32,000 nt of DNA from Psychrobacillus sp. FSL K6-4046 (GTDB lineage: Bacteria > Bacillota > Bacilli > Bacillales_A > Planococcaceae): positions 1,077,312 to 1,109,311 of the forward strand of contig NZ_CP152020.1 in assembly GCF_038624605.1 (NCBI RefSeq). The letters run 5' to 3'. The notes below the pieces were generated by a model that saw nothing but the letters and a program-made list of their open reading frames with translations, made no database searches and was not told the DNA's origin. Below, one piece after another: positions 6,447-31,189 of this stretch. The position numbers and the translations under genes are program-made. Numbering within the stretch: position 1 is the first letter of the stretch; every line of letters begins with the position of its first letter.

Positions 6447-6453
6447 CTACTTA

Positions 6454-11981: not shown

Positions 11982-11992
11982 GGGGTGACAAC

Positions 11993-12559: not shown

Positions 12560-12577
12560 AGAAAAGGGGGAATTTAG

Positions 12578-15500: not shown

Positions 15501-16156
15501 AAAAAGAAATATTCGACCAAGGGTTGGCGGGACTGAACAAGTATGAGGAAAATAAAGCATACTTGTCAGTGCAAAAGGTAGTCGGAGCAATGGATCAACT
15601 TCGTTCAATTATTAGTGATCCAGTTCCATATAAAAAAATTAAAGAGATTCCTGAACTAGTTCATGTATTAGAAGAACAAAGCAATCTCGTTTTATTAGAG
15701 AAAAAAGGAAATGCTCACAAAAAATTAAATTCAGACTACGACGAATTGTCATTACATGCGAAGCAATATGGTGTATCCAAAGCAACGAAACAGCGTGTAG
15801 ACGATTACTATGATGAATTAAAAGCCAATTTAAATACTTTTACAGATATTTTCAAAGTAGATGCGACTATTTCACAAAGTACAAGCTACAAAGAACGAAC
15901 AGAAATAGAAATTAGACGTGAAATCATTGAATGGCAACGCAAGAAAGCGGAAGAGCAGAAAAACAAACCTGGTGGAGAAGTGGTGGATCCACCAATCATT
16001 GAATCTGTTATTCAGAAACAAAATGTAAAAGTAACAGAACTCGTTACTATTAAAACACTATCAACTGAGGAAGAAGTGGATCAATATATCAATACACTAT
16101 CCAATAAATTGAAAAAAATCATCAAGTCGAATAAACAAATTGAATTTATAGAATAG
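12578..16156 (+). CDS. brxC: BREX P-loop ATPase BrxC/PglY
   Basis: 1192 aa. Walker A GFFGSGKS at 12785-12808. Walker B-like LVFLVDEIGQY. Long coiled, charged C-terminal half. RBS AAGGGGG. Confidence 0.9.
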   Translation: MILKDMFLKDIERDIRGVIKVAQTNEEDIYQELDEYVVTQELHKHLSKFYDNYQKGINGKTDKMGVWISGFFGSGKSHFLKILAYLLENKEVKGKQPIDFFENKVQDSLVYANMKRTADVDTEVILFNIDSKSSLDNKSKEDAILRVFMKVFYEHRGYYGDIPGVAEMEKYLDKQGVYEAFKTEFKALAGESWESRRNSFYFDADFVIGALTKVTDMSEESARNWFENGVNNFEISIEKFSKDVKEYIDEKGSNFHLVFLVDEIGQYIGDSRNLMLNLQTLAEDLGTHAHGKVWIMVTSQESIDSIVKVKGDDFSRIQGRFDTRLSLSSISVDEVIKKRILKKHSHVNDKLKVLFPEKSAILKNLISFRESTADLRGYDNEHEFADVYPFIPYQFKLLQNVFEQVRKHGSSGKHLSEGERSMLSAFKEAGLSYKDAEEGTLIPFYAFYDTIKEFLNPAISRVIEGAKENPALKNDEFNINLLKVLFMIKYIKELPSNIDNIATLMVRNMDEDKLQLKEKIKVAVRKLTSQTLIQKNGDYFVFLTDDEQDINREIKQMNIDEDIVKRELANYIFQDMFDDKRFNYSKEYAFSYNQKMDEKNYGNQTSSIGLNIVSPLSDHYQKSDQEMMMMTSGSGEMLIKLGGNGIYVEEMEEALRIEEFRKKKNITQLPENIQNILNNKQAEVRERRRRVRELLEDAIKGGVFFINGDKMDIKGSSVKEKINSSFKQLVDNVYTRLGYVNEHLENERALIPILTLDKDQISFDDKLGTNPNELAKREIFDFIDLQDQIQKQVRVKLIYDRFQDKPYGWKQLDIAGLIAELLKEQRIRIRYNAEYLEPETDTNKLLTIFAKTSEADKGIIIKRVKVDESLIRTAKRVCKEVFNTTDLSDDEDGLVKDIRVLIEKQIAEIVAYKARYEGRKYPGRSLLDKGLEYFGQFDNKLDNASFFMKLNELEDDLADWEEDIVYVKSFFGTNQKEIFDQGLAGLNKYEENKAYLSVQKVVGAMDQLRSIISDPVPYKKIKEIPELVHVLEEQSNLVLLEKKGNAHKKLNSDYDELSLHAKQYGVSKATKQRVDDYYDELKANLNTFTDIFKVDATISQSTSYKERTEIEIRREIIEWQRKKAEEQKNKPGGEVVDPPIIESVIQKQNVKVTELVTIKTLSTEEEVDQYINTLSNKLKKIIKSNKQIEFIE

Positions 16157-16171
16157 GAGGCTGATACGGTT

Positions 16172-19100
16172 ATGAATAAAACAGCATTGAAAAACTTTGC
16201 AACAAGTGCAAGAAAAGAATTGCTTGAAAGAGTAGAACTGCAAGCACGAAAACTTGGAATTACAGCCGAATCCATTCAAACAGCAAATATAGAAAGTTCG
16301 GATGCCGTCTTTATTGACGGAAAACAGCTTTTAGATACAGAAAGAAGACAACGTAACAAACTTATTGCCCGAATAAATGAAATAGGCTTTAACCGTGTAA
16401 TGGAAGAAACATCCTACACGTGGTTCAACCGTTTTATCGCACTTCGTTACATGGAAGTCAACGATTATTTGCCAACTAAAGTACGTGTTCTTTCCTCAAA
16501 TTCAGGCAGTGCCGAACCAGATATGATGAAAGAAGCATTATCGTTGGATTTAGAGTTAGACAAAGAATATGTTTACGATTTAAAGGTGAATAACAAAACG
16601 GATGAACTGTTCAAATATCTAATTAAAATGCATTGTAACGATTTGAACCGTTACTTGCCATTTATGTTTGAAACAATTGAAGACTATACTGAAATTCTCT
16701 TTCCAGAGGGATTACTTGGGACGGATTCGTTTGTCCGTCAGATGACAAATATAGAGGAAATTCCTGAAGGTAACTGGGAAAAAATTGAGGTAATTGGATG
16801 GCTTTATCAATACTATATTGCCGAAGAAAAAGACCGTGTTTTCAAAGCGAAAACAAAATATAAAACTGAAGAAATACCTTTTGCTACCCAGCTCTTTACA
16901 CCCGATTGGATTGTTCAATATATGGTGCAGAATTCGCTCGGACGTTACTGGGTAGAAGCCCACCCTGAACATCGTGACTTGCTTGATGGCTGGGAGTTTT
17001 ACTTGGAAAACAAACAAGAAGACTTTCAAGATAAAATCGCTCAGTATGTAAACAAAGAAATAAACGTGGAAGACATCAAATGTTTCGATCCTGCTATGGG
17101 GAGTGGACATATTCTTGTGTATATGTTTGATGTACTCTACGAGATTTATAGCAAATGTGGTTACATGGAAAGAGAAATCCCCCGACTTATCATCGAGAAT
17201 AATTTATATGGATTAGACATTGATGATCGAGCCTATCAATTGGCAAGCTTTTCAGTTGTCATGAAAGGATTACAATATAATAGACGTTTCTTGAGAAGTA
17301 TCGAAAAAGATGGATTAACGATTAATTTGGCATCTGTGCAAGAAACGAATGGATGGACTGAAGATGAGATTGAATATGTAGCGGGCCAAGGTAATGGTGT
17401 TAAATTTGAGCATACTAAAGCATTTATTGACCAATTTAATAATGCCAAAACATTCGGATCCCTTATTAAAGTAAGGCAATCTGATTTATCTATTTTAGAA
17501 AATAGACTTCATGAAATCAAATTATCACCTGTCGAAGATATTTTCCAAACAGAAAAGCGTGAGCGAGCATTAGCATTGTTCCCACAACTAATTAAACAGA
17601 CCAATATTATGAAGAAGCAATACGACATTGTCATTATGAATCCACCCTACATGGGTTCGGGAAGTATGAACAAAGTATTGTCCGATTTTTTAAGAATTAA
17701 CTATCCTGATTCGAAATCAGATCTGTTTGCCTCATTCATGGAAGTCAATCACTATTTAAAACAAAACAGTTTCTATGCGGCCATCAATCAACATTCGTGG
17801 ATGTTCTTATCTAGTTTTGAGAAGTTGCGGGAAAAAGTTATTAAAACCAAATTTATCGACTCAATGTTGCACTTAGGCCCAAGAGCGTTCGAGGAAATCG
17901 GTGGGGAAGTTGTACAATCGACAGCGTTTGTACTACGAAATACTGAAGTTCCAGATAGCAAAGGAACTTATTTAAGGTTGATTAAAGAAAAAACAGCAAG
18001 TGAAAAGAAAGAAAAAGTGGTGAAAGCTGTTCAAAATCCTTCTGTTTCATATCGATACTTATTTGACCAAGTAAACTTTAGTAATATCCCAGGTAGTCCT
18101 GTAGCTTATTGGATGAGTGATAGAATAGGCCAATTATTCAAAACTACACCTAATGTTTCAGAGGTGGCAAGTGCAAGACTGGGTTTAGCAACTGGAGATA
18201 ATGATAGATTTATGAGGGAATGGTTTGAGGTAAGTAAAGAAAATACAGCTTTCAATATGAGTTCAAGAGAGGAAGCAAAACTAAGTAATATTAAATGGTT
18301 TCCAATGAACAAAGGAGGAAGTTATAGGAAATGGTATGGTAACAATGACCTCGTTGTAAATTGGCAAAATGACGGGGAGGAAATTAGAAATTTTAAAGAT
18401 AATTTTGGTAAGCTCCGTTCCCGTCCGCAAAATCTAAGGGATTGTTTTGTGCCTGGAATTTCATGGACTGTTATTAGTTCGAAAAGCTCGTTTAGGTATT
18501 CACCTGAAGGGTTTTTATATAATAACAAGGGGCCCTGCATAAATTCGACAAATGAAGAAAATGATACTACATTATTAGGAATACTGAACTCTAAAGTAAC
18601 AGAATATATTTTGCAATTACTTTCGCCGACTATAGGATTTGAAGCTGGATATATTTCTAAAATTCCTATTGTGTTTGAGCAAGACATACAACCTACACTA
18701 AACAATATTGTTCGTCAAAATATCTTGATTTCTAAGAACGAATGGGATTCCAGAGAAACATCATGGGATTTTGGTAAACATCCTTTCGTAAAAAAACTTT
18801 CTTCAAAAGTTGAATTAGCATTCAATGAATGGAAAGAATCAAGTGAGGAACAGTTTAGGAATCTCAAATTAAATGAAGAAGAAATTAACCATATCCTAAT
18901 TGAAATATACGGTTTACAAAACGAACTTACACCTCAAGTTGAAGAAAAAGATGTCACCATTCATAAAGCAGATTTAGAACGTGACATCAAAAGTTTCATC
19001 TCTTACGCTGTCGGGTGTTCTTTCGGCCGTTATTCACTTGACGAAGAAGGGCTTATCTATGCAGGTGGTGAATTTGATATTTCACGTTATAAAACATTCC

Positions 19101-19690
19101 CAGCAGATGAAGATAATATCCTTCCGATCTTGCCAGGTACTTATTTCGAAGATGACATTGTAACAAGATTCGTTGATTTCGTTCGTGTCACATTTAGTGA
19201 AGAAACGCTTCAAGAGAATCTTGATTTTGTGGCGGATGCTGTTGGTCGGAAGAAGAATGAAACAGCGAGGGAAGTATTGCGTCGTTACTTCTTGAATGAT
19301 TTTTATAAAAATCATGTACAAGTGTATAGCAAGCGTCCTATTTACTGGCTGTTTACATCCGGCAAGGAAAAAGCGTTTAATTGTCTCATATATATGCATC
19401 GCTATGACAAAACGACGCTTTCTCGTATTAGGACTGACTATTTGCATGAGGTTCAGACTCGCTTGGATGCGGAGAAAAAGGACTTGCTTGACATCATTGA
19501 AGGGGATTCCACAACGAAGGAAATCAGCGATGCGAAAAAAGAATTGAAATCACTCAATAAAAAAATCGACGAGTTGAAAGATTATGACGAGCTGTTGCAT
19601 CATATGGCAGATATGCAGATTGAGATTGATTTGGATGACGGTGTGAAAGTGAATTATGAGAAGTTTAATGGGTTAGTGGCGAAGATTTGA
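16172..19690 (+). CDS. pglX: BREX N6-adenine DNA methyltransferase PglX
   Basis: 1172 aa. Catalytic NPPY at 17639-17650 (VIMNPPYMGSGS). SAM-binding-like FDPAMGSGHIL. Type IIG-like C-terminal specificity region. RBS AGGAGG. Confidence 0.9.
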   Translation: MNKTALKNFATSARKELLERVELQARKLGITAESIQTANIESSDAVFIDGKQLLDTERRQRNKLIARINEIGFNRVMEETSYTWFNRFIALRYMEVNDYLPTKVRVLSSNSGSAEPDMMKEALSLDLELDKEYVYDLKVNNKTDELFKYLIKMHCNDLNRYLPFMFETIEDYTEILFPEGLLGTDSFVRQMTNIEEIPEGNWEKIEVIGWLYQYYIAEEKDRVFKAKTKYKTEEIPFATQLFTPDWIVQYMVQNSLGRYWVEAHPEHRDLLDGWEFYLENKQEDFQDKIAQYVNKEINVEDIKCFDPAMGSGHILVYMFDVLYEIYSKCGYMEREIPRLIIENNLYGLDIDDRAYQLASFSVVMKGLQYNRRFLRSIEKDGLTINLASVQETNGWTEDEIEYVAGQGNGVKFEHTKAFIDQFNNAKTFGSLIKVRQSDLSILENRLHEIKLSPVEDIFQTEKRERALALFPQLIKQTNIMKKQYDIVIMNPPYMGSGSMNKVLSDFLRINYPDSKSDLFASFMEVNHYLKQNSFYAAINQHSWMFLSSFEKLREKVIKTKFIDSMLHLGPRAFEEIGGEVVQSTAFVLRNTEVPDSKGTYLRLIKEKTASEKKEKVVKAVQNPSVSYRYLFDQVNFSNIPGSPVAYWMSDRIGQLFKTTPNVSEVASARLGLATGDNDRFMREWFEVSKENTAFNMSSREEAKLSNIKWFPMNKGGSYRKWYGNNDLVVNWQNDGEEIRNFKDNFGKLRSRPQNLRDCFVPGISWTVISSKSSFRYSPEGFLYNNKGPCINSTNEENDTTLLGILNSKVTEYILQLLSPTIGFEAGYISKIPIVFEQDIQPTLNNIVRQNILISKNEWDSRETSWDFGKHPFVKKLSSKVELAFNEWKESSEEQFRNLKLNEEEINHILIEIYGLQNELTPQVEEKDVTIHKADLERDIKSFISYAVGCSFGRYSLDEEGLIYAGGEFDISRYKTFPADEDNILPILPGTYFEDDIVTRFVDFVRVTFSEETLQENLDFVADAVGRKKNETAREVLRRYFLNDFYKNHVQVYSKRPIYWLFTSGKEKAFNCLIYMHRYDKTTLSRIRTDYLHEVQTRLDAEKKDLLDIIEGDSTTKEISDAKKELKSLNKKIDELKDYDELLHHMADMQIEIDLDDGVKVNYEKFNGLVAKI

Positions 19691-19780
19691 CTTTGCAACG
19701 AGGGGCAATTCGTATGTTGAATTGCTTCGTTTCAACTTACGAGATAAAGAAAATCTAAACAATTGAAAAGAGGGGAAAAG

Positions 19781-20416
19781 ATGGAAGATGTTTTTTCAAA
19801 TAACATTGACATTAACAAAAATGCTTATATAAATTGGCGGATTGAAAAACATAATCCTATTAAAAATATGTTGACCATAGCTGATGGTTTTATGGAATCT
19901 TCTATTATATTAGCAGAACAGGCTTTAGAAGATAATAGGGATAAAAAAGCAGATATCATAATCTACCCTATCCTTTTTAATGCTAACCATGCAATTGAAT
20001 TGTATTTGAAGGCAATTGGATGGACAGTTAATATACTTCTCCATAATGATAAAAAAGTAGAAGGCGGACATGATATTCAGCAAATCCTTAATGTAGTTAA
20101 ATCAAGAGTTAATGAATTTGAGATGGATAAGGATCGAAAGAAAACTTTCAAAGAGTTGATAAGCAATCTGGAGAATTATATTAAGGAACTATTTTTAAAA
20201 ATTGAAACAGAAGATGGTGGAAAAAAGAAAGGTAACATGGATTTTTCCAGATATCCTTTTGATACGAAGTATGTATCGCATTTCTATATAGAAACATTTG
20301 ATAATGTTGTCGTAGATTTAGAGAACTTTGTTGAAAAATTTAAAGAAATAGGACAGAACTTGAACCAAATTGCGTTCCATTATCTATATGATTTTTTACT
20401 TGCTGAAAATGAATGA
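19781..20416 (+). CDS. HEPN-like all-alpha protein inserted between pglX and pglZ (211 aa)
   Basis: ATG 19781 lies 5 nt after GAGGGG; the ORF track starts at TTG 19763. The motif series LFNANHAIELYLKAIG ... GGHDIQQIL ... FSRYPFD matches my recollection of the classical HEPN pattern (AvEkaLKA ... tHdL..L ... RYp). I find no canonical Rx4-6H. It is visibly more AT-rich than the flanking BREX genes. Confidence 0.45.
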   Translation: MEDVFSNNIDINKNAYINWRIEKHNPIKNMLTIADGFMESSIILAEQALEDNRDKKADIIIYPILFNANHAIELYLKAIGWTVNILLHNDKKVEGGHDIQQILNVVKSRVNEFEMDKDRKKTFKELISNLENYIKELFLKIETEDGGKKKGNMDFSRYPFDTKYVSHFYIETFDNVVVDLENFVEKFKEIGQNLNQIAFHYLYDFLLAENE

Positions 20417-20456
20417 GAGCTTGGGCAATATTGGTTTATGAAAGTAGGTGAGGTCA

Positions 20457-23015
20457 ATGAATATTAGTCAAATTGAATCCGCACTAAAGGATATTTTTAA
20501 TGAACCGCTAAAAGACGGTGAACAGCGAAAGATTGTATTCTGGGTGGACAAGGACGGAGAATTTATTGAAGAGATTGAGCAATTGAAGATTGCTGGTGTT
20601 AGAGTCCAAACATTATCTAATCAGAACCAATTTTACATGAAGCATTTGTTGGAGGTAGAAGATCCGATCTCTTCCTATTTAATCTATACAAATTTGGAGT
20701 TAGGTGTAGAGGATAACTGGTTGGCAGATACAGTTTTGTATTCGAAGACGTTTTTTGCGGATCGGGTATCGCTTATTTTGAGTGAGCTTCAGATTGACCC
20801 ATCCCTTAGAGCTGTAATTAAAAAATATGAGCGTTTTTTCAATAATAAGGAACGTTTTAAAAAATTTCAGGCACTCGGTATAGAAGGTTTTACAGAAGAA
20901 AAAATCGAGTTAGCAATAATGAGTGTTTTGTGTAACGAGAAGACACCTGATTTTGAAGGTGTGTTAAAGGCTGTTCTGATGGATACGCTGAATGATAGTG
21001 ATAACAAGTATTTATCACATATGGATAAATATTTTGATATAATCGTGTTCTGGAAGTATGTTGCGAATAAATACGGGTATGAGCGTGAAACAAAGACATT
21101 AAAGACTTTATTTATGCATTTAACTGTGACGGCATTAAGTCACTCCATTAGTGAGAATTCTTTAACGGCCGTCAAAGAATTTATTGCAGTGCGAAATAAA
21201 ACAAATGCATTAGTATTTATTGACCACTGGATGCATCATAAAACGGATTATTCTGTGTTTGATGAATATGCTGATATGGTTGAACAAGAAATTCAACTTT
21301 CTAATATCATGCAATCTATTCCATTAGAAGAATTCAAACAAGCAGATACATTCTCATATATCGATAAAGCCATTATTATTTATATTGCGAACAGCCTTAT
21401 GGAGAAGTTAGAAGATTATGAGGAATATTCGAAGCTGATTAAATTAAGACGTGCGAAACATTACTATGAGCAATATGCGTCCGTTTATAATGCACTTTAT
21501 TATACGGTGAAAATGCATGCATTTTATAAAGAGCATCAAAAAGGAATGCCACAAGGGCAAGCTATTGATCTGTATCAGGCTTATGTAAACGAGTTCTCTA
21601 AAATGGATACATATTATCGTAAGTTCTATGTTGCATACGATGAAGAAAGTAACCATGAGTTATTGAAGAAGTTAAAAGAACTTGTGGAAAACATGTACAC
21701 AAATTGGTATATGGGTGAGTTAAGCTCTCACTGGTCACAGGCAGTAAAAAGTGAAATGATGAATAATTGGACACTTCCTGGTCTGCAAAATCAACAAAGT
21801 TTCTATTCGTCTTTCATTGCACCGCATATCCGTAGAGGTGAGCGTGCGTTTGTTATCATTTCAGATGCTATGCGATATGAAGTAGGAGTTGAACTTGCTG
21901 AGCGATTGAATTCTGAAACGATGGGGATTTGTGATATACAGACGCAACTTGGTGTGTTGCCATCTGTCACAAAACTAGGCATGGCTTCACTCCTCCCACA
22001 TCGAAACTTGGATTTTGATGAGAATGGACGTGTACTTGTAAATGACAGAGACTCGTCAGGACTCGAAAGTCGTAAGAAGATTATCGAGTCATATGTGGAA
22101 GATAGTGTTGTGATGCATTTTCAAGATGTGTTTGATATGAATAAAGCAGGTAGACGTGAAACGTTTAAAGGAAAGAAACTTATCTACTTATACCACGATA
22201 CAATTGATGCGATGGGTGATAAGGCATCTACGGAGATATACACCTTTAATGCAGTAGAAACTGCCTTGAATCAGTTGTATGACTTAGTGAAAATCATTCG
22301 AGATGATTTGAGTGGAACAAATGTATACATTACTGCAGATCACGGTTTTCTTTATCAACGAGATACGCTTCCAGAAAGTGATAAGATTGAAAAGGAGTCA
22401 ATAGATGTTATAGAAGTGAAACGTCGCTACTTACTTTCAAAAGAAAAACGTGAGATCTCAGGGCAACTTGCGATTGATTTGTCAACAATCGTGGATAACG
22501 AACAACAATTGACAGCTTATGTACCAAACGGAACAATTCGCAATCGGATGCAAGGCTCTGGAGTAAACTTTGTCCACGGTGGTGCAAGCCTTCAGGAAAT
22601 CGTTGTACCAGTGCTGTCCTTTAAAAATAAACGAGCAGGTCAAAAAGGTTCGCAAGCAATCCAAAAAGTAGACATTAGGCTGACCAACACGACACGCAAA
22701 ATTACGAATAGTATCTTTAACTTAGAGTTCTTCCAAACAGAAAAAGTAGAAGAAAAAATGGTATCTCGTACAGTTCTCATTTATATGGGCGATGATGAAG
22801 GAAATATACTATCGAACGAAGAAACGATAATAGGGGATCGCTCTTATGATAATCCTGCAGAACGTACATTTAAGCTTCAGTTTGTCTTGAAAAGCATATC
22901 TTATGATCGAAGCAAGACGTATTATTTAATAATTAAAGATATGGAAACTGGTGTTATTACTGAAAAAATACCGTTTACAATTAACTTAGGAATTGTTAGC
23001 GATTTTGATTTTTAA
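20457..23015 (+). CDS. pglZ: BREX alkaline-phosphatase-superfamily protein PglZ
   Basis: 852-855 aa (GTG 20448 or ATG 20457). PglZ-like core AFVIISDAMRYEVG ... YITADHGF. Canonical position before brxL. Confidence 0.9.
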   Translation: MNISQIESALKDIFNEPLKDGEQRKIVFWVDKDGEFIEEIEQLKIAGVRVQTLSNQNQFYMKHLLEVEDPISSYLIYTNLELGVEDNWLADTVLYSKTFFADRVSLILSELQIDPSLRAVIKKYERFFNNKERFKKFQALGIEGFTEEKIELAIMSVLCNEKTPDFEGVLKAVLMDTLNDSDNKYLSHMDKYFDIIVFWKYVANKYGYERETKTLKTLFMHLTVTALSHSISENSLTAVKEFIAVRNKTNALVFIDHWMHHKTDYSVFDEYADMVEQEIQLSNIMQSIPLEEFKQADTFSYIDKAIIIYIANSLMEKLEDYEEYSKLIKLRRAKHYYEQYASVYNALYYTVKMHAFYKEHQKGMPQGQAIDLYQAYVNEFSKMDTYYRKFYVAYDEESNHELLKKLKELVENMYTNWYMGELSSHWSQAVKSEMMNNWTLPGLQNQQSFYSSFIAPHIRRGERAFVIISDAMRYEVGVELAERLNSETMGICDIQTQLGVLPSVTKLGMASLLPHRNLDFDENGRVLVNDRDSSGLESRKKIIESYVEDSVVMHFQDVFDMNKAGRRETFKGKKLIYLYHDTIDAMGDKASTEIYTFNAVETALNQLYDLVKIIRDDLSGTNVYITADHGFLYQRDTLPESDKIEKESIDVIEVKRRYLLSKEKREISGQLAIDLSTIVDNEQQLTAYVPNGTIRNRMQGSGVNFVHGGASLQEIVVPVLSFKNKRAGQKGSQAIQKVDIRLTNTTRKITNSIFNLEFFQTEKVEEKMVSRTVLIYMGDDEGNILSNEETIIGDRSYDNPAERTFKLQFVLKSISYDRSKTYYLIIKDMETGVITEKIPFTINLGIVSDFDF

Positions 23016-23031
23016 TTGAGGGGGTGAAATC

Positions 23032-25089
23032 ATGGAAGAGAGAGTGGAAGAAACGTTGACGCTTGATCTTGATAAAAAGCTGAATGAAGCATTTGCAGGT
23101 CGTGTCGTCCGTAAAGACTTGACGAAACTTATCAAAGAAGGGGCAAACGTGCCTATATATGTGCTGGAATACTTGCTTGGCATGTATGCTGCCACAGATG
23201 ATGAAGAAAGTATTCAACAAGGTGTAGACCGTGTTAAAAAGATTCTCTCTGATAATTTTGTTCGTCCAGATGAAGCAGAGAAAATTAAATCACGTATTCG
23301 TGAGCTTGGTCAATATTCAATTATTGATAAGGTGACAGTGGCCTTGAATCCCAAGATTGACACTTATGAAGCAGAGTTTTCTAATCTTGGATTAAAAGGT
23401 GTTCCTATTTCCTCTAACTTAGTGAAAGAGTTCGATAAGCTCTTAGTTGGTGGTATTTGGTGCATGATCAAGATTGATTATTTTTATGATGAAGAAACAA
23501 AGGTAATGAATCCTTTTAGTGTCTGTAGTTTGCAACCAATTCAAATGCCGAATATGGATATGGAAGAGGTGTTTGAAGGGCGAAAACAGTTCACTAAAAA
23601 AGAGTGGATTGATGTTTTAATTCGTTCAACTGGAATGGAACCAACACAATTAGAGGAACGTGTGAAATGGCATCTGCTGTTAAGACTCGTGCCTTTAGTG
23701 GAAAATAACTACAACATGTGTGAACTCGGCCCTCGTGGTACAGGTAAATCGCATGTTTACAAAGAAATTAGTCCGAATTCTATATTAGTTTCAGGTGGAC
23801 AATCTACCGTAGCTAATCTCTTTTATAACATGACTACCCGTAAGGTAGGATTGGTAGGTATGTGGGATACCGTGGCTTTTGATGAAGTGGCAGGGATTCA
23901 CTTTAAAGATAAAGACGGAATCCAAATTATGAAGGATTATATGGCATCGGGAAGTTTCGCTCGTGGCAAAGAAGAGAAAAATGCTTCGGCTTCTATGGTG
24001 TTTGTCGGAAATATTAATCAAAGTGTAGATGTATTATTGAAAACTTCACATCTATTCGCCCCCTTCCCACCAGAAATGGCAAATGACACTGCTTTCTTTG
24101 ATCGTATGCACTATTATATGCCTGGTTGGGAAATTCCTAAGATGCGACCTGATTTATTTACTGATAAGTATGGATTTATTGTTGATTATCTTGCTGAATT
24201 TTTCCGTGAAATGCGTAAACGACAGTATGCAGATTCAATAGACCGTTATTTCAAGCTTGGAAACAACTTGAATCAACGAGATACAGTCGCAGTTCGAAAG
24301 ACTGTTTCTGGTATGGTAAAACTCATTTATCCGAATGGTGAATTCACGAAAGAAGATGTAGAGGAAATCTTACAATATGCTCTTGAAGGTCGTCGTCGTG
24401 TTAAGGAACAGCTTAAGAAAATCGGTGGCATGGAGTTTTATGATGTGATGTTTTCGTATATCGATAAAGAGTCGTTGAACGAAGAATATGTATCTGTTCC
24501 AGAACAAGGTGGAGGAAAGCTCATACCAGAAGGAATGGGTAAACCAGGCCATGTGTACGTGGTAGGACACGGTCAGACGGGTATGATAGGTGTTTACAAG
24601 CTAGAGAACCAAGTTGTAAGTGGAACTGGGAAGTTTGATAGGTCCGGCTTAGGATCCTCGAGAGACGCTAAAGAAAGTCTTGATACTGCTTTCAGGTATT
24701 TCACTGCCAATAGCAAAAGTATTAGTAATTTAATCAGCACAAAAACTAAAGATTACCTAATGCACATAAGTGACCTGCAGGGGATTGGTATTACAAGTGA
24801 ACTTGCTGTAGCTGAACTAATTGGTTTATGCTCTGGAGCACTAGAGAAACCGGTCCAAGAGAGTATGGTTATTATCGGAAACATGACTGTTGGCGGAACG
24901 ATTGCAAAGGTTGAAGAATTTGCGAATACATTACAAGTATGTGTAGATGCTGGTGCTAAAAAAGTGTTGATACCAGCAGCATCTGTAATGGATTTGCAGA
25001 CGGTTCCACCAGACTTACTAGTAAAGGTACAACCAGTGTTTTATGCAGATCCTATAGATGCAGTGTTTAAAGCGTTAGGAGTTAATTAG
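23032..25089 (+). CDS. brxL: BREX Lon-like protease/ATPase BrxL
   Basis: 685 aa. Walker A GPRGTGKS at 23728-23751. C-terminal Lon protease-like domain (GLCSGAL ... GAKKVLIP). RBS GAGGGGGTG. Confidence 0.9.
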   Translation: MEERVEETLTLDLDKKLNEAFAGRVVRKDLTKLIKEGANVPIYVLEYLLGMYAATDDEESIQQGVDRVKKILSDNFVRPDEAEKIKSRIRELGQYSIIDKVTVALNPKIDTYEAEFSNLGLKGVPISSNLVKEFDKLLVGGIWCMIKIDYFYDEETKVMNPFSVCSLQPIQMPNMDMEEVFEGRKQFTKKEWIDVLIRSTGMEPTQLEERVKWHLLLRLVPLVENNYNMCELGPRGTGKSHVYKEISPNSILVSGGQSTVANLFYNMTTRKVGLVGMWDTVAFDEVAGIHFKDKDGIQIMKDYMASGSFARGKEEKNASASMVFVGNINQSVDVLLKTSHLFAPFPPEMANDTAFFDRMHYYMPGWEIPKMRPDLFTDKYGFIVDYLAEFFREMRKRQYADSIDRYFKLGNNLNQRDTVAVRKTVSGMVKLIYPNGEFTKEDVEEILQYALEGRRRVKEQLKKIGGMEFYDVMFSYIDKESLNEEYVSVPEQGGGKLIPEGMGKPGHVYVVGHGQTGMIGVYKLENQVVSGTGKFDRSGLGSSRDAKESLDTAFRYFTANSKSISNLISTKTKDYLMHISDLQGIGITSELAVAELIGLCSGALEKPVQESMVIIGNMTVGGTIAKVEEFANTLQVCVDAGAKKVLIPAASVMDLQTVPPDLLVKVQPVFYADPIDAVFKALGVN

Positions 25090-25388: not shown

Positions 25389-26072
25389 TCAAATGGTGAC
25401 AAGTTCTGTAAGTTTGGTCACGACGTCTTCTATCGGTTCTTCGGCAGTACTCAGACCACTTCGTGAACCAAGCAAAGGACTGACTTCGCGTAGAGCTTCA
25501 TACGTAGTGCCGTGCACAATCGGAATGAGACGCTCGCCAGAGAGGAGTACCGAAAGTTCTTTGTCGGCAATACCCTCTGTTTGGAGGCGACTTAGCAACG
25601 CAGGGGTCACCAGCACAAGCCCAACTCGCGATTTCGCCAACCCCTTGTCTATTGCACGAAGTAGCGGCACGCCGAGGCCAACGTCTTTTTCACTGAACCA
25701 GACGGAGACACCTTGTGCCTCAAGCAGGTCGTGCAGATCCTTGGCGACTCCCTTCCGATCGTCCCAAGCATGGCAGAGGAAGACGTCCCTAAGGTCAAGA
25801 TCATCTCGCTCAGCCAGCTTTTCGACGCTGTTACGGATTGGTGTGAGTGCCCTAACTTCTTGAATCGTGTACACCACAGACGAACCTGCTCCCGACCAAC
25901 GTGGTTTTGCACTGCTGCCGGACCCTCCGCTACTACTTAAGCTGCCTCCACTTCTATAAGATGGGGGTGAGTACGACCTATAGTTGCTACTGTATCTCCC
26001 ACCGCACGCTGGGCAGTTGGCTCGTGCACTGGCTGATTGATGCCCCCTTACTGGAGCCGTACATCTAGCCAT
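25389..26072 (-). CDS. stand-alone TIR-domain protein with a Cys-containing, Ser/Gly-rich N-terminal extension
   Basis: 227 aa. TIR-like core: DVFLCHAWDDRKGVAKDLHDLLEAQGVSVWFSEKDVGLGVPLLRAIDKGLAKSRVGLVLVTPALL. N-terminus: MARCTAPVRGHQSASARANCPACGG, followed by an S/G/Y-rich low-complexity stretch. RBS GGGGGT lies 7 nt upstream. Three 60-nt lines I counted give 52%, 60% and 52% GC, against 40% for a brxL line. Confidence 0.8.
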   Translation of the reverse strand: MARCTAPVRGHQSASARANCPACGGRYSSNYRSYSPPSYRSGGSLSSSGGSGSSAKPRWSGAGSSVVYTIQEVRALTPIRNSVEKLAERDDLDLRDVFLCHAWDDRKGVAKDLHDLLEAQGVSVWFSEKDVGLGVPLLRAIDKGLAKSRVGLVLVTPALLSRLQTEGIADKELSVLLSGERLIPIVHGTTYEALREVSPLLGSRSGLSTAEEPIEDVVTKLTELVTI

Positions 26073-26377: not shown

Positions 26378-26403
26378 GAATAAGAATAAGAATAAGAATA
26401 AGA
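26378..26403. repeat. hexanucleotide tandem repeat (GAATAA) x ~4.3
   Basis: GAATAAGAATAAGAATAAGAATAAGA in the divergent intergenic region between the TIR gene and the 649-aa gene. Confidence 0.8.
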
Positions 26404-26577
26404 GCTGCCTGAGCAATCCAACGATTTTTAACTAAAGAACCCGTTTACTTTAACTGCGACTATTCACAACATTTAAAAGAAACAAATAACGACCGGAATT
26501 CATTAAGTAATAGCTATCCGCATAGGGTGGTTATTTAACTTATTTTTATTTATAATATAAATGATAAATTATTTTGG

Positions 26578-26605
26578 TCCGATATTTTTTATATCGGATT
26601 TTTTT
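26578..26605 (+). terminator. strong intrinsic terminator / possible attenuator 40-110 nt upstream of the 649-aa gene
   Basis: TCCGATAT (26578-26585) pairs with ATATCGGA (26591-26598) across a 5-nt loop, then T7. It is functional only on the + strand, and no + strand ORF lies upstream of it. Confidence 0.6.
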
Positions 26606-26646: not shown

Positions 26647-28596
26647 ATGGCTATTCACGATCTTCAATTACGGCAGTTAATGTACGTCCTTTTGAATGAG
26701 AAAGATGGTGTTTTTATGGAAAAATACAAAAATAAGGAGTTCTTGATTCAAAAGTTAAAGGTGGAAAAGTTATCCTATAACCAATTAGCCGTCCAATTGG
26801 GTTGCGGTGTGTCAACTCTTAGATATTGGATAAAGAAGCACGGAATTGAACTAAGAGGAAATTTACAAAAAGAGTTATTAAAGAACAAAAGAAAAATCAC
26901 GGAAATGTACATTCAGCAAAACAAGACATTGAAGGAGATTGGTGAGGCATTTAATTGCTCACAACAAACGGTCCTGAATTTTATTAATGCTGAGGGGATC
27001 TATAAGGACATCAACCGTTGGCAGAGATGGGAGGAAGAAGAAGTCAGGGATTTGATCCGTTTAAGAAATGAAGGCAAAAAACTTGGCGAAATCTATCAAT
27101 TCTTTAAAGGTAAATACAATGAGAACAAAATCTCACACAAATTAAATTCACTGGGATTTTTCAGGGAGGAAGTATGGAGTGAAGATGAAGAACGAATGCT
27201 AAAAGAGTGCGACGGGCTAAGTATGAATGAAATCCTCCCATTATTCCCTCATAAGGATTATAGTCAAATTCTTTATAAAGCCGGTGCATTAAAGGTAGAT
27301 ATCAGATTGATGAACAGACCCTGGTCAGAGAATGAAAGACAGGTTTTGATAAACAATCCAGACAAAACACTCGACGAATTGGCTGCAATGCTGGACAGAA
27401 GCAGTAACGCTATCTGGACGAAAATCAAAGAGGAGAAATTGACATTTAAGAAGAAGGTCGTGATGGCAAGTGATATAATAGACAATAAAATCACATGCCC
27501 TAAATGCGGTGAGTTAAAGGAATATACAGAAGAAAACTTCAACTTGAACATAAACTACTACACTTGCATTAATTGCAGAAACAAAATCACCAACATTACA
27601 AAATATAGGTTAAAATACGGAATTACGCTAGATTTCGAAAAGATGTTTAATACCTTTACAGCCATCGAATGGTATCATATGTATTTGGATGGTCGTATTA
27701 GTAAATTGCCTCAAGAAATATACGACTCACATGTGAAGAGAAATGAAATCATTGTTCACATCATAAAGGAATTGCTAAAAAAGGAAAGCAGAGAAGATAT
27801 CATTGAATTGAATTACAATGACATCCGAAGGTACAAAATCACATATTTTCTTCTTGGAAATAATATATGCGACATTTTAAACGATGTATTTTCAGAATAC
27901 AACTTCAAACATTGGGAATTCCGGTTGGTTCCAGGGGATTTTTGGAGTGAGAAACAACACGCAGATGAATATCTTCGATGGTTTGTTGAAACCAGGTTGA
28001 ATATCAACGAATTAAATATCAACAGGGATATCCCTAAAATTTTTACAGTTTCCTCATTAAGAATAATTGGAGAACATCGTTTGAACCGTTGTTTGCATGA
28101 ATATGATCACTATGGGAGCTACTATGAATGGTTGTCCTATATATTTCCACAGTGGGGTCTTCAACCTGAAAATTTCAAATTAAGTATCTCCTTCGATGGC
28201 GTTGTGTTTGATTCCAATGAAGAATGTTTGATTTATGAATATTTAAAAAGAGAATGTGGGATTTCTATTACTTATGTAGGAAACCAACGATTTTATAAAT
28301 TTTGGAATGAAGAACATAATGAGTCGTATATTCCGGACTTTGTAATCAGTAAAATCAATAATATAAAGCTAGATAAGCCTCTCATAATGGAATATTATGG
28401 ATTGTACAATCCTAATTTAACCGATTCTTTCTTCCAAGATTATTGCGAGAAAACCTGTAGGAAAAATGCCTTTTACAAACAGAACGGGGATATTTACTTC
28501 CTAGATATTTATCCCTATGACTTGGTATCAACTTTCAAAGGAGTCTCCGAAAAACTGAATGCTTTTAACAAACAGGAAATAAATAGGGAAAGATGA
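26647..28596 (+). CDS. multi-domain DNA-binding protein: 2 HTH modules, 3 Myb/SANT-like repeats, zinc ribbon, C-terminal PD-(D/E)xK-like nuclease fold
   Basis: 649 aa from ATG 26647 (no SD) or 626 aa from ATG 26716 (MEKYKNKEF...). HTH modules: SYNQLAVQLGCGVSTLRYWIKKHGI and NKTLKEIGEAFNCSQQTVLNFINAEGI. W-x-x-E-E repeats: WEEEEVRDLIRLR, WSEDEERMLKE, WSENERQVLIN. Zinc ribbon: CPKCG-x22-CINC. C-terminus: FDSNEECLIYEYL ... YIPDFVI ... LIMEYYG (an E / PDF / ExxG arrangement, as in DUF559/TnsA-N-type folds). Confidence 0.7.
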   Translation: MAIHDLQLRQLMYVLLNEKDGVFMEKYKNKEFLIQKLKVEKLSYNQLAVQLGCGVSTLRYWIKKHGIELRGNLQKELLKNKRKITEMYIQQNKTLKEIGEAFNCSQQTVLNFINAEGIYKDINRWQRWEEEEVRDLIRLRNEGKKLGEIYQFFKGKYNENKISHKLNSLGFFREEVWSEDEERMLKECDGLSMNEILPLFPHKDYSQILYKAGALKVDIRLMNRPWSENERQVLINNPDKTLDELAAMLDRSSNAIWTKIKEEKLTFKKKVVMASDIIDNKITCPKCGELKEYTEENFNLNINYYTCINCRNKITNITKYRLKYGITLDFEKMFNTFTAIEWYHMYLDGRISKLPQEIYDSHVKRNEIIVHIIKELLKKESREDIIELNYNDIRRYKITYFLLGNNICDILNDVFSEYNFKHWEFRLVPGDFWSEKQHADEYLRWFVETRLNINELNINRDIPKIFTVSSLRIIGEHRLNRCLHEYDHYGSYYEWLSYIFPQWGLQPENFKLSISFDGVVFDSNEECLIYEYLKRECGISITYVGNQRFYKFWNEEHNESYIPDFVISKINNIKLDKPLIMEYYGLYNPNLTDSFFQDYCEKTCRKNAFYKQNGDIYFLDIYPYDLVSTFKGVSEKLNAFNKQEINRER

Positions 28597-29214: not shown

Positions 29215-30131
29215 GGGGTCTTCCGCCCAGGCACACTAGATAAATGGGGCTTAACGTGGGAAGTAATGAAAGAGGCTAATCCAAAGCTCATCTTACTTCG
29301 TACCTCAGGCTTTGGACAAACCGGACCATACGCCAAAAAAGCAGGATTTGGTACTGTGGTAGAGGCAATGAGTGGCTTCACCTCTATTAATGGGGAGAAG
29401 GGGGGCAACCCTACCTTACCGGCACGGTACTGGCAGACGGTGTTTCCAGTATATTTGGCGCACTTTCCATCATGATTGCGCTATATGGGCAAATAAAGAA
29501 TGGTATATCAGAAGGGCAGCGGATTGATATCAATCATTACGAGCTATTAATGCTCTTACTGGAGCCCCAAATAACCGCATACGATCAATTAAACAAAATT
29601 CCTGTCCCTATCGGAAATAGCAGCCTACAAACAGCTCCACGAAATGCCTATCTAACAAAGGATAATACATGGATCGCCCTACCAGGCTCCTCACAATCTA
29701 TCACCGAAAATATATTCAAAGCAATTGGACGAGAGGACCTAATTACAGATCCAAAGTTCTGTACCAATGAACAACGAGTTCAGTATGTAGCAGAATTAGA
29801 TGGTATTATAGGAGACTGGGTTCGAAAGCACACATTACAAGAGGTAGTTGCACGCTTTGACGAATGTGGTGCTATCGCAGGCCCAATGTATAACATTGCC
29901 CAGCTATTTGAAGACCCTCACTATCAGCATAGAGAATCCTTCATACATGTTCCTGATAAAGACTTTGGAGAAATGCGAATACCAAACGTCGTAGCGAAGT
30001 TTTCTCTTACACCTGGGGAAGTACGCACATTGGGACCCGATAAGGGAGAGCATACGATTCAGATATTGAAGGAGCAGGTGGGGCTGTCTGATGAGAAGAT
30101 AGAGCAGTTGAGGGAGTTGGGTGTGATTTAA
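29215..30131 (+). pseudogene. family III CoA-transferase (CaiB/BaiF-like), 5'-truncated and frameshifted
   Basis: Homology starts abruptly after a stop at 29212-14: GVFRPGTLDKWGLTWEVMKEANPKLILLRTSGFGQTGPYAKKAGFGTVVEAMSGF... About 75-90 N-terminal residues are missing. The frame breaks near 29419-29421: ...GGNPTLP continues in the +1 frame as GTVLADGVSSIFGALSIMIALYG, joining ORFs 29266..29475 and 29472..30131. Confidence 0.8.
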
Positions 30132-30265: not shown

Positions 30266-31189
30266 AACTAACATCATAAGACTGCTCTATAAAGTGTTTC
30301 GCCTTCTCTAGGTCTTCATCTTTATTAATCCTTATCTCTAAATCTCAAGTACCGTAATGCCCAATATTAGATACATCACGTGTAAAGCCTGGTTCTAGAG
30401 ATATAGTGGAAGGGTCTACCTTTAGATACAGTAGTATGGTATTGGAATTTAGATGGACTTCAACGCAGGCAAAGTTTTTAATTCGTTTGAAGGCGAAATA
30501 GTTTTTTAACGTCTTCATTTGTACGTCGTCGCCTAAGGCAATCATAGAAGCTTTTAAATTCTCGAAGCGATCTGTGAGTGTTTCATTTGCTTGTGCTACG
30601 TAATCTGAAACAGTTTTGGATGTTTTATTATTAGTTTTGTGTGTAATACCAGCAGGTTCATCATCAATATAGACAGTCTGCACTGTTGTTGCATTCATAG
30701 GTCTAACATTAAGAAACCATAAATATAGTGTTTGTATTGATAAAGCTCGATGTTCCGATGATCTGTTGAACGGCATGTTCATCAAACTTTGTAAAATTAC
30801 CAGCTATACATAATAGGCGTGGGCTGCTCCAATCGATATTTTCTGCTATTGAAGGACCGAATCTTCTTAAGGTCATTAATTCAAATTCTGCCTTAAGGTC
30901 CAGTAGCCAATCTAAATAATAAAGACCTTGGTTAATCACTTTTTCATTCCTAGCTCGTTTATATTCGATAATGACAGGTGAGTTATTTTCATCTAAACCA
31001 AGTGTGTGTGTCGATTCTTCCACCGTGTCGTTTACCTGTAGAATACTCGGAAGCCAAAAACTTTATACCGAGAAATGCTTCTAGATGCTTCTCAATTAAG
31101 TGCTGTAGTGATTTTTCTAAAGCAACCGAATGACCACGCAACTCCCACACATCTTCTCCATTTATTTTAAAAAATTTAATGTCACCCAT
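30249..31189 (-). pseudogene. NucS/DUF91-like endonuclease fused to a DUF5655-like C-domain, decayed
   Basis: The three track ORFs (30989..31189, 30709..31023, 30345..30785) are pieces of one gene: ...GGRID|THTLGLDENNSPVIIEYKR... The first break is at a (GT)5 tract, 31002-31011; one extra AC unit on the coding strand would restore the frame. Around 30720-30780 the plausible sequence RNIELYQYKHYIYGFLMLDL lies in a third frame, so there are at least 3 frameshifts. An in-frame TGA at 30345-47 (GHYGT*DLEIRINKDEDLEKAKHFIEQSYDV) looks like a GGA to TGA change. Confidence 0.7.

What the first reader, a model, noticed from the sequence alone, without database searches (positions are those of the whole stretch)
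26647..28596. Large multi-HTH / Myb-like / zinc-ribbon protein with a PD-(D/E)xK-like C-terminus of unknown family
**Domain string, as I read it.**
- two NUMOD/resolvase-type HTH modules;
- three W-x-x-E-E Myb/SANT-like repeats;
- a CPKC...CINC zinc ribbon;
- a ~250-aa unassigned middle region;
- a C-terminal segment with the E ... Y-x-PDF ... E-Y-Y-G signature of restriction-endonuclease-fold proteins (DUF559, Vsr or TnsA-N style, with no obvious Lys).

**Why it stands out.** This is far more DNA-binding hardware than a homing endonuclease usually carries. The gene sits in a defence island between BREX and the island boundary. It may be a sequence- or structure-specific DNA-sensing nuclease, as either a defence effector or a selfish endonuclease.
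Basis: partly seen in the sequence, partly recalled or inferred. Interest (0 to 1): 0.7.

Follow-up and report, generated by a model that had tools for sequence, protein, structure and literature searches.

The report
Stray phage homing-endonuclease-like gene
The gene is real and probably encodes a DNA-cutting enzyme, but its relatives sit in phage head-gene clusters where selfish "homing" nucleases insert, so it is most likely a stray selfish phage nuclease rather than a bacterial defence gene.

Summary
**Observation.** The ORF at 26647-28596 (+) is real. The likely start is M24 at 26716.

**Domain order:**
- two HTH modules
- three Myb-like units
- a Cys4 zinc ribbon
- a C-terminal restriction-endonuclease-like domain

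**Nuclease domain.** E526, D564 and E582 are near-invariant. The classical ExK lysine is replaced by Tyr or Phe.

**Family.** It is large but unnamed: 2592 cluster representatives at E<=1e-3.

**Context of relatives.**
- Most homologues whose context I read lie in phage contigs.
- About 15 phage members lie between the portal and prohead-protease genes of SPbeta/Tsamsa-like phages.
- That slot was empty in 69 of 79 related phage loci.
- In other relatives the slot holds GIY-YIG or Zn-ribbon/ExDGxQH nuclease genes.
- This is the signature of a free-standing homing endonuclease hotspot.
- The homologue contexts I read carried no recognisable defence operon. PADLOC matches only one HTH.

**Verdict.** This is an uncharacterised family of phage homing-endonuclease-like genes. 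The window copy is a solitary chromosomal copy beside BREX and a ThsB-like TIR gene. It carries a double HTH not seen in the other listed members. Domestication for defence is possible but unsupported.

The parts
26647..28596 (+). Whole ORF, 649 aa. The likely true start is ATG 26716 (M24), giving 626 aa.
26734..26850 (+). HTH module 1 (aa 30-68).
   Evidence: Pfam HTH_23 and HTH_17 at aa 38-68. PADLOC mad1-type HTH at aa 40-68. Helices 30-39, 44-51 and 55-64. Not found in any other of the 150 listed family members.
26860..27021 (+). HTH module 2 (aa 72-125), sigma-70 region 4 / resolvase type.
   Evidence: Pfam HTH_28, HTH_11 and Sigma70_r4 at aa 81-114. phrog_8446 'HNH endonuclease' covers aa 24-121 at E 1.3e-15.
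27022..27438 (+). Three Myb/SANT-like three-helix units (aa 126-264) with W128, W177 and W226.
   Evidence: phrog_323 in three stretches. Helix pattern in the model. Shared with at least 27 family members. Pfam Myb_DNA-binding matches 5 of 93 scanned homologues.
27481..27576 (+). Cys4 zinc ribbon (C284, C287, C307, C310).
   Evidence: Read directly from the sequence. Two short strands in the model. Weak matches to zinc-ribbon parts of phage 'HNH endonuclease' and 'endonuclease VII' PHROGs. A CxxC...CxxC pair occurs in 54 of 113 homologues.
27592..27921 (+). DUF4046-like helical repeat, unit 1 (aa ~316-425).
   Evidence: hhalign of unit 1 against unit 2: probability 98.3%, E 1.9e-14. Pfam DUF4046 matches 24 of 93 homologues.
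27922..28182 (+). DUF4046-like helical repeat, unit 2 (aa 426-512).
   Evidence: The same unit occurs 7-10 times in tandem in other proteins.
28183..28596 (+). C-terminal PD-(D/E)xK-like nuclease domain (aa 513-649). Putative metal site is E526, D564, E582. K602 and K606 lie on the following helix.

Best explanation
**What it is.** The gene belongs to an uncharacterised family of phage free-standing homing-endonuclease-like genes.

**How the family is built.** The family core is two DUF4046-like helical repeats followed by a C-terminal restriction-endonuclease-fold nuclease. Different members add zinc ribbons, Myb-like units or HTHs in front of that core.

**Inferred mechanism:**
1. The chain of small DNA-binding modules reads a long, asymmetric target.
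2. The C-terminal domain, using a metal held by E526, D564 and E582, cuts nearby.
3. In phages the natural target is expected at the portal / prohead-protease junction of genomes that lack the gene.
4. Recombinational repair during co-infection then copies the gene into that slot.

**The window copy.** It is a solitary chromosomal descendant of this lineage. It is intact, carries an extra N-terminal double HTH, and lies in a mobile island next to BREX and a ThsB-like TIR gene.

**Shown versus inferred:**
- Shown: the domain anatomy, the conservation, and the phage context with presence/absence at the slot.
- Inferred: nuclease activity, the target, homing, and what the chromosomal copy does now.
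For: **Family and conservation**
- The profile of aa 316-649 finds 2592 cluster representatives at E<=1e-3 and 190 at E<=1e-30.
- The acidic triad is near-invariant in 150 sequences and invariant in 50 C-terminal segments.

**Fold**
- The C-terminal model has pLDDT 94.6 with alpha-beta-beta-beta-beta-alpha-beta order.
- The weak PDB Foldseek hits are dominated by PD-(D/E)xK nucleases: Hjc, Cas4, TnsA, Card1, BstEII and XisH.
- Foldseek against BFVD gives 12 hits at E<=1e-3 with probability 1.0. The wider list, down to E about 2e-2, includes phage homing endonucleases, a VSR homing endonuclease, DUF559 and DUF2726.
- Pfam Phage_endo_I matches 7 of 50 segments, TnsA-N 4 of 50 and DUF1064 2 of 50.
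- phrog_945 'endonuclease' matches 13 of 50.
- In weak, non-significant profile alignments, E582-Y-[YF]-G-L-[YW] lines up with T7 endonuclease I E-T-K-G-L-W and with Bax1 E-I-A-G-F-W.

**Context**
- Eight proteins looked up by exact sequence (P0002, P0003, P0005, P0006, P0007, P0014, P0047, P0157) lie just upstream of the YonD_N prohead-protease gene, after the portal-size gene where that end of the contig is present.
- One MAG contig has a member directly after the portal gene.
- 8 of 16 IMG/VR loci have portal upstream and protease downstream of the member, and three of these are the same genes as the look-ups above.
- In cultured phage Thrax1 the portal and protease genes are 17 bp apart.
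- In 79 related loci the gap is at most 262 bp in 69. One locus holds this family.
- Nine loci (six distinct inserts) hold other insertions: GIY-YIG genes in L040 and L091, Zn-ribbon + ExDGxQH genes in L049, L066 and L073, and an unidentified ORF in L038.
- The DNA-binding modules match those of phage HNH homing endonucleases.
- Published work shows that homing endonuclease genes cluster at essential structural and terminase genes (PMC10448857).
- It also shows that N-terminal HTH modules plus a C-terminal Vsr-like nuclease is a known homing-endonuclease layout (I-Bth0305I, PMC3239194).
Against: - No cleavage, target or homing has been shown for any member.
- The slot is conserved across members only 27-45% identical. 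That could also mean vertical inheritance of an accessory phage gene with another role.
- No solved structure matches significantly. The best PDB Foldseek E-value is 0.13.
- The canonical lysine is missing.
- The window copy is not in a phage. No portal or protease remnant is detectable in the window, so homing cannot be its present function here.
- A subgroup of roughly 880-960 aa members lies at other phage sites, near tape-measure genes.
Confidence: 0.62

Rival explanations
1. Domesticated anti-phage nuclease. The chromosomal copy, retargeted or strengthened by its extra double HTH, cuts the head-gene region of incoming SPbeta/Tsamsa-like phages. It would act as a single-gene defence alongside BREX and the TIR protein.
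For: - It lies between brxL and the island boundary, next to a ThsB-like gene.
- The copy is intact and keeps every conserved residue.
- Its N-terminal double HTH is not found in the other 150 listed members.
- The ancestral targets of the lineage would be phage genomes.
Against: - PADLOC matches only an HTH.
- No recognisable defence operon was seen next to any phage-borne homologue. The only other bacterial copy, P0039, lies by an integrase, a YonV_C gene and a short Mrr_cat fragment.
- A scan of 185,579 species genomes with one narrow peptide pattern found only two MAG contigs. One of these is a phage-type portal context.
- Mobile and selfish genes often accumulate in the same hotspots as defence genes.
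Confidence: 0.17
2. Phage morphogenesis or packaging accessory nuclease, comparable to terminase-associated HNH proteins or head-completion nucleases, kept next to the portal gene for function rather than as a selfish element.
For: - The position between portal and protease is conserved across divergent members.
- One BFVD hit is annotated 'head completion nuclease'.
Against: - The slot is empty in 69 of 79 related loci and in cultured relatives such as Thrax1.
- In other relatives the same slot holds GIY-YIG and other nuclease genes.
- The N-terminal DNA-binding modules are highly variable.
- Some members lie at other sites.
Confidence: 0.08
3. DNA-binding regulator with a degenerate, inactive nuclease fold. 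The loss of the ExK lysine would mark the loss of catalysis.
For: - The canonical lysine is Tyr or Phe throughout the family.
- There are many HTH and Myb modules.
Against: - The E/D/E triad, plus K602, K606 and D625, is near-invariant over 150 diverged sequences. That is not expected of a dead site.
- Bax1 has the same E-x-x-G-aromatic motif without the lysine, and its paper describes it as an active nuclease.
Confidence: 0.1

Closest known systems
EDxHD / Vsr-like homing endonucleases (I-Bth0305I; phage Hef)
   Same: - N-terminal HTH (NUMOD-type) DNA-binding modules followed by a C-terminal restriction-endonuclease-fold nuclease.
- Phage-borne.
- Conserved Glu on the first helix and Asp at the start of a strand (PMC3239194).
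- The BFVD hits include a 'Group I intron-associated VSR homing endonuclease', DUF559 and DUF2726 proteins.
   Different: - There is no conserved His and no E-x-D-G-x-x-H motif. The family has E-Y-[YF]-G-[LM]-[YFW] instead.
- Neither 3r3p nor 1vsr appears among the 50 PDB Foldseek hits shown.
- It is much larger, with Myb-like units, a zinc ribbon and DUF4046-like repeats.
- It is free-standing, not intron- or intein-encoded.
T7 endonuclease I, TnsA N-terminal domain, DUF1064, Bax1 (DUF790): PD-(D/E)xK nucleases
   Same: - Motif order E (helix) ... P-D-F ... E-x-x-G-L/F-W/Y aligns residue for residue, in weak profile alignments.
- An acidic triad, as in Bax1.
- TnsA gives the highest PDB TM-score, 0.41.
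   Different: - All sequence matches are below significance when taken singly (E 0.003-1).
- The Lys of ExK, present in T7 endonuclease I, is Tyr or Phe here.
- The biology differs: those proteins are junction resolvases, a transposase subunit and a repair nuclease.
Free-standing phage homing endonucleases of the GIY-YIG and HNH classes (T4 Seg and Mob; I-TevI and I-HmuI module sets)
   Same: - Modular HTH and zinc-finger DNA-binding arrays. phrog_8446, 7545, 19902 and 2255, all labelled 'HNH endonuclease', match the N-terminal modules.
- Insertion between essential conserved genes with presence/absence polymorphism (PMC10448857).
   Different: - The catalytic domain is of a different fold.
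- It sits at the C-terminus rather than the N-terminus.
Zn-ribbon + E-x-D-G-x-Q-H nuclease genes found here in the same phage slot (L049, L066, L073)
   Same: - They occupy the same portal/protease slot.
- They have the same S-x-x-E ... F-D-F ... I-E-x-x-G motif order. hhalign aligns these motifs in register, P 0.0026.
   Different: - Those proteins keep the Asp and His of the DUF559/Vsr-type motif.
- They lack DUF4046-like repeats and Myb units.
- The profile similarity is weak (hhalign probability 11.5%).

Membership tests
PD-(D/E)xK (restriction-endonuclease-like) fold | [quoted passage not shown] | tested here: met
   The AlphaFold model of aa 500-649 has pLDDT 94.6. Its elements are H524-536, strands 539-543, 552-554, 559-561, 565-570 and 573-583, H594-612 and strand 617-621. 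This is a prediction, not a solved structure.
PD-(D/E)xK (restriction-endonuclease-like) fold | Conserved acidic residues: Glu on helix 1, Asp at the start of strand 2, Glu or Asp on strand 3 | tested here: met
   E526, D564 and E582 are at least 90% conserved in 150 sequences and invariant in 50 C-terminal segments.
PD-(D/E)xK (restriction-endonuclease-like) fold | Lys two residues after the strand-3 acid (the ExK motif) | tested here: not met
   That position is Tyr or Phe. It aligns with K67 of T7 endonuclease I. K602 and K606 on the next helix are conserved and could substitute. I could not check the geometry because model coordinates are not returned.
PD-(D/E)xK (restriction-endonuclease-like) fold | Significant structural similarity to a solved member | tested here: inconclusive
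EDxHD / Vsr-like homing endonucleases | Composite motif E, D, x, H, D with a catalytic His | tested here: not met
   No His is conserved anywhere in the family. The nearly invariant residues are S, E, P, D, E, G, Y, K, K, D, K. The motif definition is taken from PMC3239194.
Free-standing homing endonuclease gene | Nuclease domain fused to modular sequence-reading DNA-binding domains | tested here: met
Free-standing homing endonuclease gene | Sporadic presence at a fixed site between conserved genes in otherwise syntenic genomes | tested here: met
   The family occupies the portal/protease slot in about 15 phage members. The slot is empty in 69 of 79 related loci and in Thrax1. Other nuclease genes occupy it elsewhere.
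Free-standing homing endonuclease gene | Cleaves the allele that lacks the gene and is copied into it (homing) | not testable with these tools
   This needs cleavage assays and mixed-infection crosses.
Known anti-phage defence systems (PADLOC) | Match to a defence-protein model over the effector part | tested here: not met
   The only match is the 60-residue mad1 HTH model, at aa 40-68.
Known anti-phage defence systems (PADLOC) | Homologues enriched next to defence genes | tested here: not met
   Most homologues examined lie in phage contigs, with no recognisable defence operon beside them. The one other bacterial copy, P0039, lies by an integrase, a YonV_C gene and an Mrr_cat fragment.
Thoeris (with the adjacent ThsB-like gene) | A ThsA-type effector (SIR2 or Macro with SLOG) beside ThsB | tested here: not met
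   The target protein has no such domain. No homologue context I examined listed a TIR-domain neighbour.

The most novel reading that the evidence does not exclude
The chromosomal copy is a domesticated homing endonuclease. Its ancestral specificity for the portal/prohead-protease region of SPbeta/Tsamsa-like phages, extended by a newly acquired double HTH, has been turned into a single-gene anti-phage nuclease in a BREX/TIR island. A side point follows: the DUF4046-like unit, present as 2 copies here and 7-10 in other proteins, would be a new modular DNA-reading repeat.
Probability: 0.15. Interest if true: 0.7.

Novelty: new variant of a known kind. Interest (0 to 1): 0.4.

Why it matters
**If the main reading holds,** it adds an unnamed and fairly large family to the phage homing-endonuclease repertoire. 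Three features stand out:
- a restriction-fold catalytic domain that lacks the classical lysine;
- a tandem helical repeat (DUF4046-like) that may read DNA in modules;
- a well-defined insertion hotspot, between the portal and prohead-protease genes, that several nuclease classes share.

It is also a caution for defence-island mining, because a long multi-domain nuclease beside BREX need not be a defence gene.

**If the chromosomal copy is domesticated,** it would be a clear case of a selfish phage nuclease turned against phages.

Tried and rejected
**Searches that found nothing useful**
- Searching the PDB by sequence found nothing meaningful, with the single protein or with profiles.
- Foldseek of the full-length model against the PDB gave only noise, because the model has many domains. 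I then modelled the C-terminal domain alone.
- The first word-based homologue search was swamped by HTH words and found only 2 proteins. Searching with aa 277-649 found 7. Exhaustive HMMER found thousands.
- Genome scans: A2 and A7 were too diverse for pattern design. A5 gave no confirmed hit. A10 gave 2 MAG contigs.
- A tblastn search of cultured phages with the core found only one weak hit, in Clostridium phage D-1873.
- I looked for portal, protease or small-ORF remnants around the window gene, to see whether it lies in a decayed prophage. None was found.

**Ideas considered and rejected**
- A Thoeris pairing with the adjacent ThsB-like gene: the protein has no ThsA-type domain, and no homologue context listed a TIR neighbour.
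- EDxHD membership: no conserved His.
- A BREX accessory role: no homologue lies near BREX.
Full report
**1.

An ORF of 649 codons runs from 26647 to 28596 on the + strand. It is identical to the hypothetical protein MKY09_05325 of Psychrobacillus sp. FSL K6-4046, which is annotated from Met24 as 626 aa.

Met24 (ATG at 26716) is the more likely start. It follows a Shine-Dalgarno-like GAAAGATGGTG, whereas the ATG at 26647 has none. Residues 1-26 are modelled at low confidence. The best PHROG match begins at residue 24.

**2. Anatomy**

- **Two HTH modules.** Pfam places them at aa 38-68 and 81-114, with HTH_28, HTH_11 and HTH_23 above their gathering score. phrog_8446, labelled 'HNH endonuclease', covers aa 24-121 at E 1.3e-15.
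- **Three Myb-like units.** Three W-[SE]-E-x-E units at W128, W177 and W226 are each modelled as three helices. They match phrog_323. Pfam Myb_DNA-binding matches 5 of 93 scanned homologues.
- **Zinc ribbon.** C284, C287, C307 and C310 form a zinc ribbon. A CxxC...CxxC pair lies just upstream of the core in 54 of 113 homologues.
- **The 'unassigned' middle.** This region is two tandem copies of a helical unit of about 90 residues. hhalign of aa ~333-425 against 426-512 over the family alignment gives probability 98.3% and E 1.9e-14. The unit corresponds to Pfam DUF4046, which matches 24 of 93 homologues with best E 2e-10. Other proteins carry 7-10 copies in tandem.
- **Model quality.** The full-length AlphaFold model, built on 150 homologues, has mean pLDDT 88.8.

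**3. The C-terminal domain**

Modelled alone, aa 500-649 reach pLDDT 94.6. The order of elements is helix, four strands, helix, strand, helix.

S523, E526, P563, D564, E582, G585, Y599, K602, K606, D625 and K636 are at least 90% conserved in 150 sequences. Nine of these are invariant in 50 C-terminal segments.

No solved structure matches significantly. However, the weak Foldseek hits against the PDB are mostly PD-(D/E)xK nucleases. They include Hjc resolvases, Cas4 SSO0001, TnsA (TM-score 0.41), Card1, BstEII, XisH and viral cap-snatching endonucleases.

Against predicted viral structures there are 12 hits at E<=1e-3 with probability 1.0. Further down the list, to E about 2e-2, are phage proteins annotated 'Homing endonuclease' (Bacillus phages Eldridge and Bobb, Enterococcus phage EFP01). 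Others there carry the labels 'Group I intron-associated VSR homing endonuclease', DUF559, DUF2726, 'Restriction enzyme' and 'Holliday junction resolvase'.

At the sequence level, 50 C-terminal segments hit the following families recurrently but weakly:

| Library | Family | Segments matched (of 50) |
|---|---|---|
| Pfam | Phage_endo_I | 7 |
| Pfam | Tn7_TnsA-like_N | 4 |
| Pfam | DUF1064 | 2 |
| Pfam | DUF790 | 1 |
| PHROG | phrog_945 'endonuclease' | 13 |
| PHROG | phrog_22655 (no function) | 34 |

In weak profile alignments to the PDB (E 0.1-1.1), Y-I-P-D-F ... I-I-E-Y-F-G-L-Y lines up with T7 endonuclease I Y-T-P-D-F ... F-V-E-T-K-G-L-W. It also lines up with Bax1 F-I-P-D-F ... Y-I-E-I-A-G-F-W. 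So the classical ExK lysine is Tyr or Phe here.

Bax1 also lacks that lysine. Its structure paper describes three acidic residues as the potential metal-binding site of an active nuclease (PMC7293015).

My conclusion is a restriction-endonuclease-fold domain with an E/D/E site that is very probably active, but a divergent variant. It has no conserved His, so it is not an EDxHD/Vsr-type enzyme in the strict sense defined in PMC3239194.

**4. The family**

The word-indexed search found only seven relatives, at 33-45% identity over the core. An exhaustive HMMER search with the profile of aa 316-649 found far more:

| E-value threshold | Cluster representatives |
|---|---|
| 1e-3 | 2592 |
| 1e-10 | 1056 |
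| 1e-30 | 190 |

Nearly all are metagenomic and unnamed. The two repeats plus the nuclease form the constant core. What lies in front of the core varies: nothing (328-aa forms), Myb units, a zinc ribbon, or other HTHs. The N-terminal double HTH of the window protein occurs in no other of the 150 best members.

**5. Where the relatives live**

Eight proteins looked up by exact sequence are P0002, P0003, P0005, P0006, P0007, P0014, P0047 and P0157. All lie in phage contigs with SPbeta-type gene families (YonG, YonD, YonB, YomX, YomW, YomV, YomU). Each sits just upstream of the YonD_N gene, after a portal-size gene where that end of the contig is present.

YonD_N is the prohead protease of Tsamsa/Thrax/SPbeta-like Bacillus phages. 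In Thrax1 the portal and protease genes are 17 bp apart.

I anchored 80 IMG/VR loci on the protease gene. A portal gene was found upstream in 79:

| Portal-to-protease gap | Loci | Content |
|---|---|---|
| 262 bp or less | 69 | empty, or one small ORF of 57-70 aa |
| 1934 bp | 1 | this family |
| 748-1392 bp | 9 (six distinct inserts) | other insertions |

The other insertions are:
- GIY-YIG genes in L040 and L091;
- genes with Zn ribbons and an S-x-G-E ... F-D-F ... I-E-Y-D-G-E-Q-H nuclease motif in L049, L066 and L073;
- an unidentified 259-aa ORF in L038.

A second scan for the family itself found 16 viral loci. Eight have portal upstream and protease downstream of the member, and three of these are the same genes as the look-ups above. 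Members of roughly 880-960 aa lie at other phage sites, in some cases upstream of tape-measure genes.

A scan of 185,579 species genomes with one narrow peptide pattern confirmed only two MAG contigs. In one of them the member again sits directly after a portal gene.

Only two copies are clearly in bacterial chromosomes. One is the window gene. The other is P0039 of Halobacillus litoralis, which lies beside an integrase, a YonV_C gene and an Mrr_cat fragment.

**6. Interpretation**

Several features together mark a free-standing homing endonuclease gene:
- a fixed site between two essential, conserved genes;
- sporadic occupancy of that site;
- occupancy of the same site by unrelated nuclease classes;
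- shuffled DNA-binding modules.

Published work shows that such genes cluster at structural and terminase genes (PMC10448857). It also shows that HTH modules followed by a C-terminal Vsr-like nuclease is a known homing-endonuclease layout (PMC3239194).

PADLOC matches only an HTH.

The window copy itself is not in a phage. Its surroundings are:
- BREX type 1 (brxA to brxL, 11385-25089) and a ThsB-like TIR gene on the opposite strand upstream;
- a truncated, frameshifted CoA-transferase pseudogene downstream, which probably marks the island edge;
- no portal or protease remnant anywhere in the window.

What this copy does now is therefore open. It may be a stranded selfish gene that is still intact, which I think most likely. 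It may instead be a domesticated nuclease aimed at the phages its ancestors lived in. That idea is attractive, but its only support is the location and the extra double HTH.

**7. Verdict**

The 'defence effector' reading is not supported; the 'selfish endonuclease' reading is favoured. The family is uncharacterised:
- the nuclease domain has no Pfam model;
- DUF4046 appears in none of the papers searched;
- the best-matching PHROG has no function assigned.

It is therefore a new variant of a known kind. Interest is moderate.

Noticed in passing
window 25389-26072 (-): A ThsB-like TIR protein (PADLOC ThsB1 at E 5.9e-115; Pfam TIR_2) with a Cys- and Ser-rich N-terminus. Local GC is about 45% against about 34% around it. 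No ThsA-type gene was seen beside it, so it looks like an orphan or remnant Thoeris component.
   Followed up: partly
window 11385-25089 (+): A complete type 1 BREX operon: brxA, brxB, brxC, pglX, pglZ, brxL. An extra 217-aa ORF with no Pfam match lies between pglX and pglZ at 19763-20416.
   Followed up: partly
window 2499-7005 (-); L014 4017-6928 (-): A run of four same-strand genes (169 aa, 714 aa, a 453-aa tyrosine recombinase, and a 183-aa HTH_17 protein), which from memory resembles a Tn554-like transposition module. A similarly sized three-gene run (355, 462 and 157 aa) lies near the Halobacillus homologue P0039. I did not test whether the two sets are homologous.
   Followed up: no
window 8447-9268 (+): An rve/HTH_21 (DDE integrase-core) transposase ORF lies between the recombinase module and BREX.
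   Followed up: no
window 29266-30131 (+) and 30345-31189 (-): A CoA-transferase family III gene lacks its first ~106 profile positions and is split by a frameshift. A run of three overlapping ORFs on the minus strand, one of which matches DUF5655, looks like a gene broken by frameshifts. These probably mark the right-hand edge of the island near 29.2 kb.
   Followed up: partly
window 26379-26403 and 26576-26600: An (AATAAG)n microsatellite and a terminator-like hairpin followed by a T-run lie in the 574-bp spacer upstream of the gene.
   Followed up: no
L040 4860-5747; L091 2608-3615; L049 888-1622; L066 492-1220; L073 5202-5966: In SPbeta/Tsamsa-like phages the portal / prohead-protease junction is a shared insertion hotspot. 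It holds GIY-YIG genes in two loci, and Zn-ribbon + S-x-G-E/F-D-F/E-x-D-G-x-Q-H nuclease genes in three.
   Followed up: yes
L118 5516-7873 (protein P0076); also P0093, P0129: Proteins made almost entirely of 7-10 tandem DUF4046-like units (V-P-x-G-F-W ... N-R ... W-L ... D-W-Y ... F-P ... W-x-W-x-F), with no nuclease domain. P0076 lies among genes that look bacterial rather than phage (sensor kinases, an oxidoreductase). This may be a modular nucleic-acid-binding repeat.
   Followed up: partly
L107 2586-5471; L110 2661-5432; L113 2823-5474; L114 2808-5507; L100 2906-5626: A subgroup of the family of roughly 880-960 aa lies at other phage sites. In L110, and probably L100, it sits upstream of tape-measure-size genes. 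Neighbours elsewhere include an antirepressor, a MazF-like toxin and an integrase.
   Followed up: partly
L017 4593-4787; L080 5761-5934; L083 5705-5917; L003 7670-7867: A small conserved ORF of 54-70 aa (DUF5659 in some loci; a shared F-Y-C ... V-F motif) often lies between the portal and protease genes. When the nuclease gene is present, this ORF sits just upstream of it.
   Followed up: no
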